Below are positions 16,571-17,835 of a stretch of DNA of 62,060 bases, one piece after another. The notes below the pieces were generated by a model. The model was not told the origin of the DNA and ran no database searches. It saw nothing but the letters and a program-made list of their open reading frames with translations. The position numbers and the translations under genes were made by a program. The stretch comes from Negaprion brevirostris. Its lineage: Eukaryota. Where the stretch lies: NCBI GenBank assembly GCA_030324005.1, contig JARDVH010000115.1, positions 27,699,497 through 27,761,556 on the forward strand, written 5' to 3'. Positions within the stretch are counted from its first letter, which is position 1. Each line of letters begins with the position of its first letter.

Positions 16571-17835
16571 CACTTTACCAGGCCTTGCCCATGTGCAAAT
16601 AAATCCCTCTTGACAGGCAGTGACTATACAGTCTTCAAGAAATATTAACACAGTCAGCCTTTCATGTGCTATCTTTTTACAGATAAGAGGCTCTAACAAG
16701 GGCACAGAGAAGTTCCCAGAGTCTTAGCTGAGTCCATTTTAGTTTTGGTGACTAGGTTTAGTTTGTCGCTGCTTTTGCTGGAAATGTGACCCATGCTGTG
16801 GTTTCGTTTGTGATCCTTCTCATGGTGTCTTTCCTTGCGGTCGTGTAGTGATAAGGTTGCAAATTTACTGACTCCAGAAGCAATTGCACCATCCATGACA
16901 CTGCTTTTGTTATTGACATTTGTAACTGCTGAATGTGGAAGGCTATTTGATCGAGGAAGGGGAGGAGGTAAGGAGTTGCTGGGTGTTGTGATGCTGCTGT
17001 TACCATTGCTTCCAGTGCTGGTTGCAACATTTCCAGCTGATGGGCTTGTGGCATTCATCACATTTGTGTGTGTCCGAGCACGTGAAAGAGGTTGATGAGG
17101 GAATAGAATATCTTCCGTCAGATCCCATAAACAGAGCTGTGTGTCTTGACCAACAGAGCCAAACCTATACGTGACACTTACAGGGCGACTGTCTGTAGAA
17201 TTCCTTTTTGACAACCTAGATTGAGTACTATTTGCTCGATCTCTGCCAAAGTGTATTTGGTCTTGGAAGTCCTCATCACTCCCACTGAATTCCATAGGAT
17301 CATTTTCTTCTACGCTAGTGGTATAAGGATCAAATGCAACAACGCTGACCCATGACTTATGTCCATGTCCCCTGGCTATTACACGACAGTCTATAAAAGA
17401 CCACACGGTCACCAGATCGTCCTCTCCACCTGTCACAATGTATTTTCCATCTGGACTCCAACACACACACAGCAGTCCTCCAAAGTAACTTTTCATTGTA
17501 CCATGCAACTCCACCGAATCAAAATTAAACACACGGAGAAATCCATCCTGACTTACACAAGCAAGGTACTTCCCATCAGGAGAGAATGCAAACTCATTTA
17601 GGGCCCCCTCGCCAACTGTCCATTTGAGTAAAGGGTTTCTTGTAGATTTGCTTTTGCAGGTGTGAACTGCGTAATTGTCTCCTTGTTTCAGTGGCTGATA
17701 ATGTGGTGCTGTGGTACCACAAGAATGTTCCACATTGTACAAGTACATATTGCCACTGGAATGAGATACTAAAAACAGGCTTTCTGAACCAGGCACCCAT
17801 TTTACACAGGTTACTCGTGACTTGTCTATTAACCT
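16571..17835 (-). CDS. WDR20: WDR20 coding exon 3 (WD40 repeats, Ser-rich linker, NES region, last blade); apparent frameshift near 16700
   Basis: Acceptor tttttcctcaacag|AGG (RLIDKSRVTCVKW...), covered by ORF 16693-17859. After ...TLGTSLCP the conserved tail LLEPLICKKIAHERLTVLIFLEDCIVTACQEGFICTWARPGKV continues in another frame to donor GTG|gtaagt at 16571/16570. Length 1265 nt is not a multiple of 3. Confidence 0.96.
16840..16896 (-). other. WDR20: Coding segment MDGAIASGVSKFATLSLHD, matching the reported CRM1-dependent NES of WDR20
   Basis: The peptide is read directly from the ORF. The NES function is recalled from human WDR20. Confidence 0.65.

What the first reader, a model, noticed from the sequence alone, without database searches (positions are those of the whole stretch)
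16693..16710. Apparent 19-nt microhomology-bounded deletion frameshifts WDR20 exon 3
Seen: the minus strand reads CTG TGC CCT TGT TAG, giving ...LCPC* at 16693-16695. The conserved tail LLEPLICKKIAHERLTVLIFLEDCIVTACQEGFICTWARPGKV continues intact in another frame, and the exon length (1265) is 2 mod 3. Established (recalled): orthologs read LCPRMEDVPLLEPL. Inference: the original was cTGTGCCCn cgn atg gaa gaTGTGCCCttg, so 19 nt between two TGTGCCC copies collapsed (1265+19=1284, or 428 codons). The stop removes the last WD40 segment and both C-termini, and would make the spliced isoform an NMD candidate. No other lesion is visible, so this is either an assembly/consensus artefact or a very recent slippage/MMEJ loss-of-function allele. 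An artefact is the more likely, and old pseudogenisation is not supported.
Basis: partly seen in the sequence, partly recalled or inferred. Interest (0 to 1): 0.7.

Follow-up and report, generated by a model that had tools for sequence, protein, structure and literature searches.

The report
Likely false frameshift in shark WDR20
This shark's assembled copy of the highly conserved gene WDR20 lacks 19 bases and stops early; the gap is more likely an error of a fragmented genome assembly than a rare damaged allele, and a true species-wide loss is unlikely.

Summary
Observation confirmed. WDR20 exon 3 (17835-16571, 1265 nt) reads LCPC* at 16693-16695 and the conserved tail goes on in another frame. 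Of 279 proteins held, 274 carry the motif, all with six residues between LCP and LLE, so 19 nt are missing. The one shark orthologue retrieved reads RMDDV, not RMEDV. The repeat at the junction is inferred, though the shark paralogue has GTGCCC twice 19 nt apart. Otherwise the protein matches bamboo-shark WDR20 but for 2 substitutions and one in-frame Thr. No read evidence could be had: 0 contigs were laid in 4 of 4 runs. The assembly is fragmentary (24 gaps in the window), the paralogue's exon 3 is split over two scaffolds, and lone stops occur in HTR1B and a giant cadherin exon. Against an artefact: the junction is mid-contig, a 6-7-nt repeat does not collapse in k-mer graphs, and the scar fits natural end joining. 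Odds: artefact 0.55, heterozygous allele 0.33, fixed loss 0.10. The scan's notes held no WDR20 finding.

The parts
29176..29358 (-). WDR20 exon 2 (61 codons), intact
   Evidence: tblastn; 61 of 61 residues identical to shark P0165; AG and GT ends seen
16571..17835 (-). WDR20 exon 3, 1265 nt, 19 nt short of an in-frame 1284
16700..16706 (-). Single TGTGCCC at the junction; reads (L)-C-P in the upstream frame and V-P in the downstream frame
   Evidence: sequence; second copy inferred from orthologue residues and from paralogue codons
16693..16695 (-). Premature TAG, 122 nt before the exon 3 donor
16571..16705 (-). Out-of-frame conserved tail VPLLEPL...ARPGKV (45 codons)
   Evidence: 45 of 45 residues identical to P0165; matches human WDR20 520-564 in PDB 5k19
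16497..16570 (-). Start of intron 3: read-through codons VSLSS, stop at 16555-16553, AATAAA at 16502-16497; likely end of a read-through isoform like the VVSFNP forms of other vertebrates
   Evidence: use of this end is inferred
6119..6172 (-). WDR20 exon 4 coding part GLLSSQNQANSPSGTVV*, intact
   Evidence: 16 of 17 identical to P0165; 17 of 17 to paddlefish and pigeon
14270..18335 (.). Gap-free 4066-nt assembled piece holding exon 3; junction about 2.4 kb and 1.6 kb from its ends

Best explanation
The assembly lacks 19 bases of WDR20 exon 3, and this is likely a local mis-join made during sequencing or assembly at a short repeat inferred to occur twice, so the living shark would carry an intact WDR20. 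Shown: the gene is the single WDR20 orthologue, the 19-nt shortfall, the early stop, and errors or gaps elsewhere in this assembly. Inferred: the second repeat copy, and that a slipped or chimeric read, or a short-overlap gap closure, entered the consensus.
For: Gene otherwise under full constraint: against shark P0165, 0 substitutions in 379 + 45 exon 3 residues (one in-frame Thr fewer), 0 of 61 in exon 2, 1 of 83 in exon 1, 1 of 17 in exon 4; splice sites canonical. Fragmentary assembly: 24 N gaps in 62 kb, median piece 2008 nt. The paralogue's exon 3 is broken: its first 46 codons lie on scaffold C121, joined to unrelated unique GC-rich DNA, and overlap the edge of a 1010-N run on C182 by 13 nt. 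Other lone lesions in conserved genes: an in-frame TAA in HTR1B and an in-frame TAG in a giant cadherin exon. False gene losses are common in older assemblies (PMC9516821, passages). No truncated form was found by exact look-up in 7 tries (weak).
Against: The junction is mid-piece in single-copy DNA. A 6-7-nt repeat is far below usual assembly word sizes and does not collapse in a de Bruijn graph (established knowledge). Exact overlaps of 71, 54, 12 and 9 nt at 4 of 24 gaps were left unmerged, so the pipeline does not merge short overlaps freely. Illumina-based assemblies had few frameshift errors (PMC9516821, passage). The surveys found no second case: no frameshift outside gaps, introns or multi-lesion protocadherins in 20 GPCR/Kir loci and 20 cadherin loci inspected (chosen from top-scoring, intact-biased lists). 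A deletion of 5 or more bases with microhomology is the normal scar of theta-mediated end joining (PMC8096281, passages). The C121 piece may be a real partial duplicate (it differs from all 9 compared proteins at one residue beside the join), and the lone stops may be real alleles.
Confidence: 0.55

Rival explanations
1. A real, rare, heterozygous loss-of-function allele made by theta-mediated end joining or replication slippage between two GTGCCC copies; the haploid consensus happened to keep it, and the other chromosome is intact.
For: Mid-piece junction in unique DNA; junction register expected at about 0.5% of sites; size and microhomology fit ID6-type scars (PMC8096281); no other lesion in the gene; only one WDR20 copy in the assembly, as expected of a collapsed haploid consensus.
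Against: Loss-of-function alleles in a gene this constrained should be rare (inference from mutation-selection balance and the low shark mutation rate, PMC10587355 abstract); the assembly shows other defects in conserved exons; no second haplotype scaffold holds the intact exon.
Confidence: 0.33
2. A homozygous or species-wide loss of WDR20, tolerated because the cartilaginous-fish WDR20-like paralogue would stand in as activator of USP12/USP46.
For: A paralogue 74% identical exists, intact at this motif, in a clade kept by sharks and rays (99/98). Slow shark evolution means an undecayed pseudogene could be up to about 3.7 million generations old (1162 non-synonymous sites, 7e-10 per generation).
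Against: 274 of 274 proteins with the motif keep its length; P0165 is one identical sequence in 4 NCBI records of bamboo and epaulette sharks although they also hold the paralogue, so the paralogue has not relaxed WDR20 there; no second lesion; no paper on WDR20 loss surfaced (4 listed, titles and abstract starts only).
Confidence: 0.1
3. The deletion is real but partly bypassed: it puts a pyrimidine tract before TAG, and an internal intron from a weak donor in the linker would restore the frame of the tail.
For: Pyrimidine fraction 0.74-0.79 before the AGs at 16693 and 16691; in-frame GT sites in the linker at 17061, 17003 and 16917.
Against: Those donors match only 6 of 9 consensus bases (recalled consensus); the product would still lack LGTSLCPR...PLL, which includes the equivalent of Arg516 and is kept in the trimmed crystal construct 6jlq; no RNA evidence.
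Confidence: 0.02

Closest known systems
Vertebrate WDR20 (human, PDB 5k19/5k1c/6jlq; bamboo-shark P0165)
   Same: Same exons, 99% identity to the shark protein, inside the WDR20 clade at 100/100.
   Different: The assembled copy lacks 19 nt and would end at residue 524, before the equivalents of Arg516 and Glu534 that contact USP46.
False gene losses in draft assemblies (PMC9516821)
   Same: A conserved gene with one frameshift in a gap-rich assembly that also has split exons and Ns in coding sequence.
   Different: That study counted frameshifts under 10 bp and found them rarer in Illumina assemblies; this one is 19 nt with an inferred repeat.
Theta-mediated end-joining deletions, signature ID6 (PMC8096281)
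   Same: Deletion of 5 or more bases between short microhomologies.
   Different: Only one repeat copy is seen here, and the event is not shown to exist in DNA of the animal.
Cartilaginous-fish WDR20-like paralogue (G000 C182; P0226 and kin)
   Same: Same motif and GTGCCC twice at 19 nt.
   Different: Separate clade, 74% identical, intact at the junction; whether it is the DMWD orthologue was not resolved by the unrooted tree.

Membership tests
WDR20 orthologue | Best match and tree position with WDR20, apart from WDR20-like and DMWD | tested here: met
   (7-row clade, 100/100)
WDR20 orthologue | Four-exon structure with conserved boundaries | tested here: met
   exon 1 lies about 2 kb beyond the window end (L005)
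WDR20 orthologue | Open frame through the C-terminal propeller segment | tested here: not met
   stop at 16693-16695
Assembly artefact (false frameshift) | Raw reads of the same individual contradict the consensus | tested here: inconclusive
   0 contigs laid in 4 of 4 runs; the tool states this can be false
Assembly artefact (false frameshift) | Lesion at a contig edge, gap, homopolymer or long repeat | tested here: not met
   1.6 and 2.4 kb from the nearest gaps, single-copy DNA
Assembly artefact (false frameshift) | Other coding defects in the same assembly | tested here: inconclusive
   split paralogue exon and two lone stops, none verified by reads; no second deletion of this kind in 40 loci inspected
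Microhomology-mediated deletion (TMEJ or slippage) | Deletion of 5 or more bases | tested here: met
   19 nt
Microhomology-mediated deletion (TMEJ or slippage) | Microhomology of 2 or more bases at both ends in the ancestral allele | tested here: inconclusive
   GT.CC fixed by amino acids, full GTGCCC seen only in the paralogue; orthologous shark DNA not available
Unitary pseudogene | Lesion fixed in the species | not testable with these tools
   no cover from other runs
Unitary pseudogene | Further lesions or excess amino-acid change | tested here: not met

The most novel reading that the evidence does not exclude
This shark lineage has recently and completely lost WDR20, an activator of the USP12/USP46 deubiquitinases whose sequence is almost frozen across jawed vertebrates, and survives on the cartilaginous-fish WDR20-like paralogue: a natural knockout caught before decay.
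Probability: 0.1. Interest if true: 0.5.

Novelty: not a real feature. Interest (0 to 1): 0.12.

Why it matters
Most likely it matters only as a warning that this assembly gives false gene losses even in mid-contig coding sequence. As a heterozygous allele it would be one ordinary rare variant. Only a fixed loss would interest specialists: it would show that WDR20 is dispensable in a vertebrate and make redundancy with its paralogue testable.

Tried and rejected
Public runs: 20 of 24 listed runs, from 9 studies, hold half or more of the sampled words of 16500-17900, best 0.92 and 0.91; no RNA holder listed; shares cannot resolve a junction worth about 2% of the words. Laying contigs of X1, X2, X3 and X14 on 16630-17110 gave 0 laid in 4 of 4 runs, no evidence either way. 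Exact look-up of 7 truncated forms and the tail piece found none; the form beginning at the upstream TTG read as Met was not tested. A search with the linker alone for short shark fragments across the junction gave 2 hits among 13 candidates, neither a named shark. AlphaFold2 on P0165 with 30 sequences failed (mean pLDDT 29.6) and was not used. Pfam finds no family in the 50-aa tail, so 'last WD40 segment' rests on the PDB alignments and on the recalled seven-blade fold. Rfam: 0 matches in the window. A second intact WDR20 copy: not found. My early guess of a carpet shark was dropped: the paralogue is nearer Carcharodon, Scyliorhinus and Mustelus proteins than Rhincodon or Chiloscyllium (weak support). 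Old pseudogene: rejected, no further lesions. Paper searches for a WDR20 knockout phenotype and for DMWD redundancy gave nothing usable in what I saw. Look-ups in the scan's notes found no WDR20 or comparable deletion finding.

Full report
Observation. The minus strand reads CTG TGC CCT TGT TAG, ending a 388-residue open frame as LCPC* at 16693-16695, and the tail VPLLEPL...ARPGKV continues in another frame. Exon 3 is 17835-16571, 1265 nt, with the stop 122 nt before the donor. Of 279 proteins held, 274 have the motif and all 274 have six residues between LCP and LLE; 5 lack the motif. The shortfall is therefore 19 nt. The only shark WDR20 orthologue retrieved (P0165) reads RMDDV. One TGTGCCC is present at 16706-16700. 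The second copy is inferred: Val-Pro fixes GT.CC, a match found at 6 of 1105 positions at lag 19 in this exon and 5 of 1131 in the paralogue, and the paralogue has GTGCCC twice at exactly this spacing.

What the gene is. It is the single WDR20 orthologue of a shark. Exons 2, 3 and 4 lie in the window and exon 1 about 2 kb beyond its end. Against P0165 there are no substitutions in 424 exon 3 residues, one in-frame Thr fewer, none in exon 2, and one each in exons 1 and 4. A tree of 24 rows places it in the WDR20 clade at 100/100, apart from a shark-and-ray WDR20-like clade that holds the paralogue on scaffold C182. No second copy of exon 3 was found.

Consequence if real. Human WDR20 activates USP12 and USP46; Arg516 and Glu534 contact USP46, although E534A had little effect and the hydrophobic contacts mattered more (PMC6796834, first 10,000 of 15,906 characters read). 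By the alignment to PDB 5k19 both residues fall in the lost part, and the trimmed construct 6jlq keeps this segment while dropping the linker. That it closes the propeller is recalled knowledge; my own model failed and Pfam does not see the tail. The spliced transcript would be an NMD target by the recalled 50-55-nt rule; a read-through form ending near the AATAAA at 16502 would give a truncated protein. A null or near-null is the likely result.

Direct test not obtained. Twenty of 24 listed runs hold most of the stretch, but no contig was laid in any of 4 runs, which the tool says can be false. Exact look-ups of 7 truncated forms were negative, which is weak. The question rests on indirect evidence.

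For an artefact. The window has 24 gaps and a median piece of 2008 nt. The paralogue's exon 3 is split: its acceptor and first 46 codons lie on C121, run straight into unrelated unique GC-rich DNA, and overlap by 13 nt the point where C182 resumes after 1010 N. This is either a chimeric join or a real partial duplicate that displaced the true copy; the N run could also be withheld sequence. Among 148 GPCR matches (147 of 1415 candidates scored), two carry in-frame stops not explained by a gap or intron: HTR1B with one TAA and another receptor with two; a third stop, in a gapped locus, was not resolved. Among 88 cadherin frames (150 of 848 candidates scored), I fetched 20, 19 picked as short or odd and one long control; one giant exon has a lone TAG and two clustered protocadherins carry several lesions. 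Twelve other short frames, ten of them on small scaffolds, were not fetched. False gene losses touched 26-60% of genes in older assemblies (PMC9516821, 8 passages).

Against an artefact. The junction is 1.6 and 2.4 kb from the nearest gaps, in single-copy DNA. Repeats of 6-7 nt do not collapse in k-mer graphs (established knowledge), and exact overlaps of 71, 54, 12 and 9 nt at 4 of 24 gaps were left unmerged. The same paper found few frameshift errors in Illumina assemblies. No second deletion of this kind appeared in 20 GPCR/Kir loci or 20 cadherin loci inspected; these lists favour intact genes, and frame changes at gaps cannot be judged. A deletion of 5 or more bases with microhomology is the usual scar of theta-mediated end joining (PMC8096281, 12 of 17 passages). 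A heterozygous allele kept by a haploid consensus therefore remains a close rival.

Fixed loss. With 1162 non-synonymous sites and 7e-10 mutations per base per generation (PMC10587355, abstract), a neutral gene would stay free of amino-acid change for up to about 3.7 million generations, so lack of decay does not exclude it. But other sharks keep WDR20 unchanged beside the same paralogue. A search for WDR20 with 'gene loss' listed 4 papers, none on this by title or abstract start; I did not read them or any supplements. A splice bypass using the AG beside the junction is possible on paper but needs weak donors and still loses the conserved motif.

Verdict. The lesion is real in the assembled sequence; its biological reality is unproven. 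Artefact 0.55, heterozygous allele 0.33, fixed loss 0.10, bypass 0.02. These odds are judgement, not computed. Interest 0.12.

Noticed in passing
L009:1516-1654 (G000 C121 near 10,284,540) and L004:1504 (G000 C182): First 46 codons of exon 3 of the WDR20-like paralogue, with upstream intron, sit on another scaffold joined to unique GC-rich DNA; 13-nt overlap with the C182 gap edge. Mis-join or partial duplicate.
   Followed up: partly
L014 (G000 C99:26,208,145-26,209,047, minus): HTR1B (best PDB match) with one in-frame TAA before TM6 (RKRI*AARERK); otherwise intact.
   Followed up: partly
L086 (G000 C97 near 48,355,495, minus): Lone in-frame TAG between 351- and 1021-residue frames of a giant cadherin exon; FAT-type by recalled motifs, not tested.
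   Followed up: partly
L059 (G000 C143:25,479,350-25,480,108): Class A GPCR with two in-frame stops five codons apart, likely a pseudogene.
   Followed up: no
L073, L077 (G000 C110, 68.38-68.40 Mb): Two clustered protocadherin variable exons with a frameshift or two stops, in a cluster spanning about 67.9-69.2 Mb.
   Followed up: no
window 18336-18435, 35428-35527, 57353-57452, 10374-10383: Gap flanks repeat exactly over 71, 54, 12 and 9 nt, so these gaps are likely false with duplicated edges.
   Followed up: yes
window about 16985-16993: Linker reads SSITTPSN against SSITTTPSN in bamboo sharks: one in-frame Thr fewer, species difference or slip.
   Followed up: no
P0090 (Aotus), P0225 (Sciurus): Two mammalian models diverge or end near this same C-terminal region; probably processed pseudogenes or model errors.
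   Followed up: no
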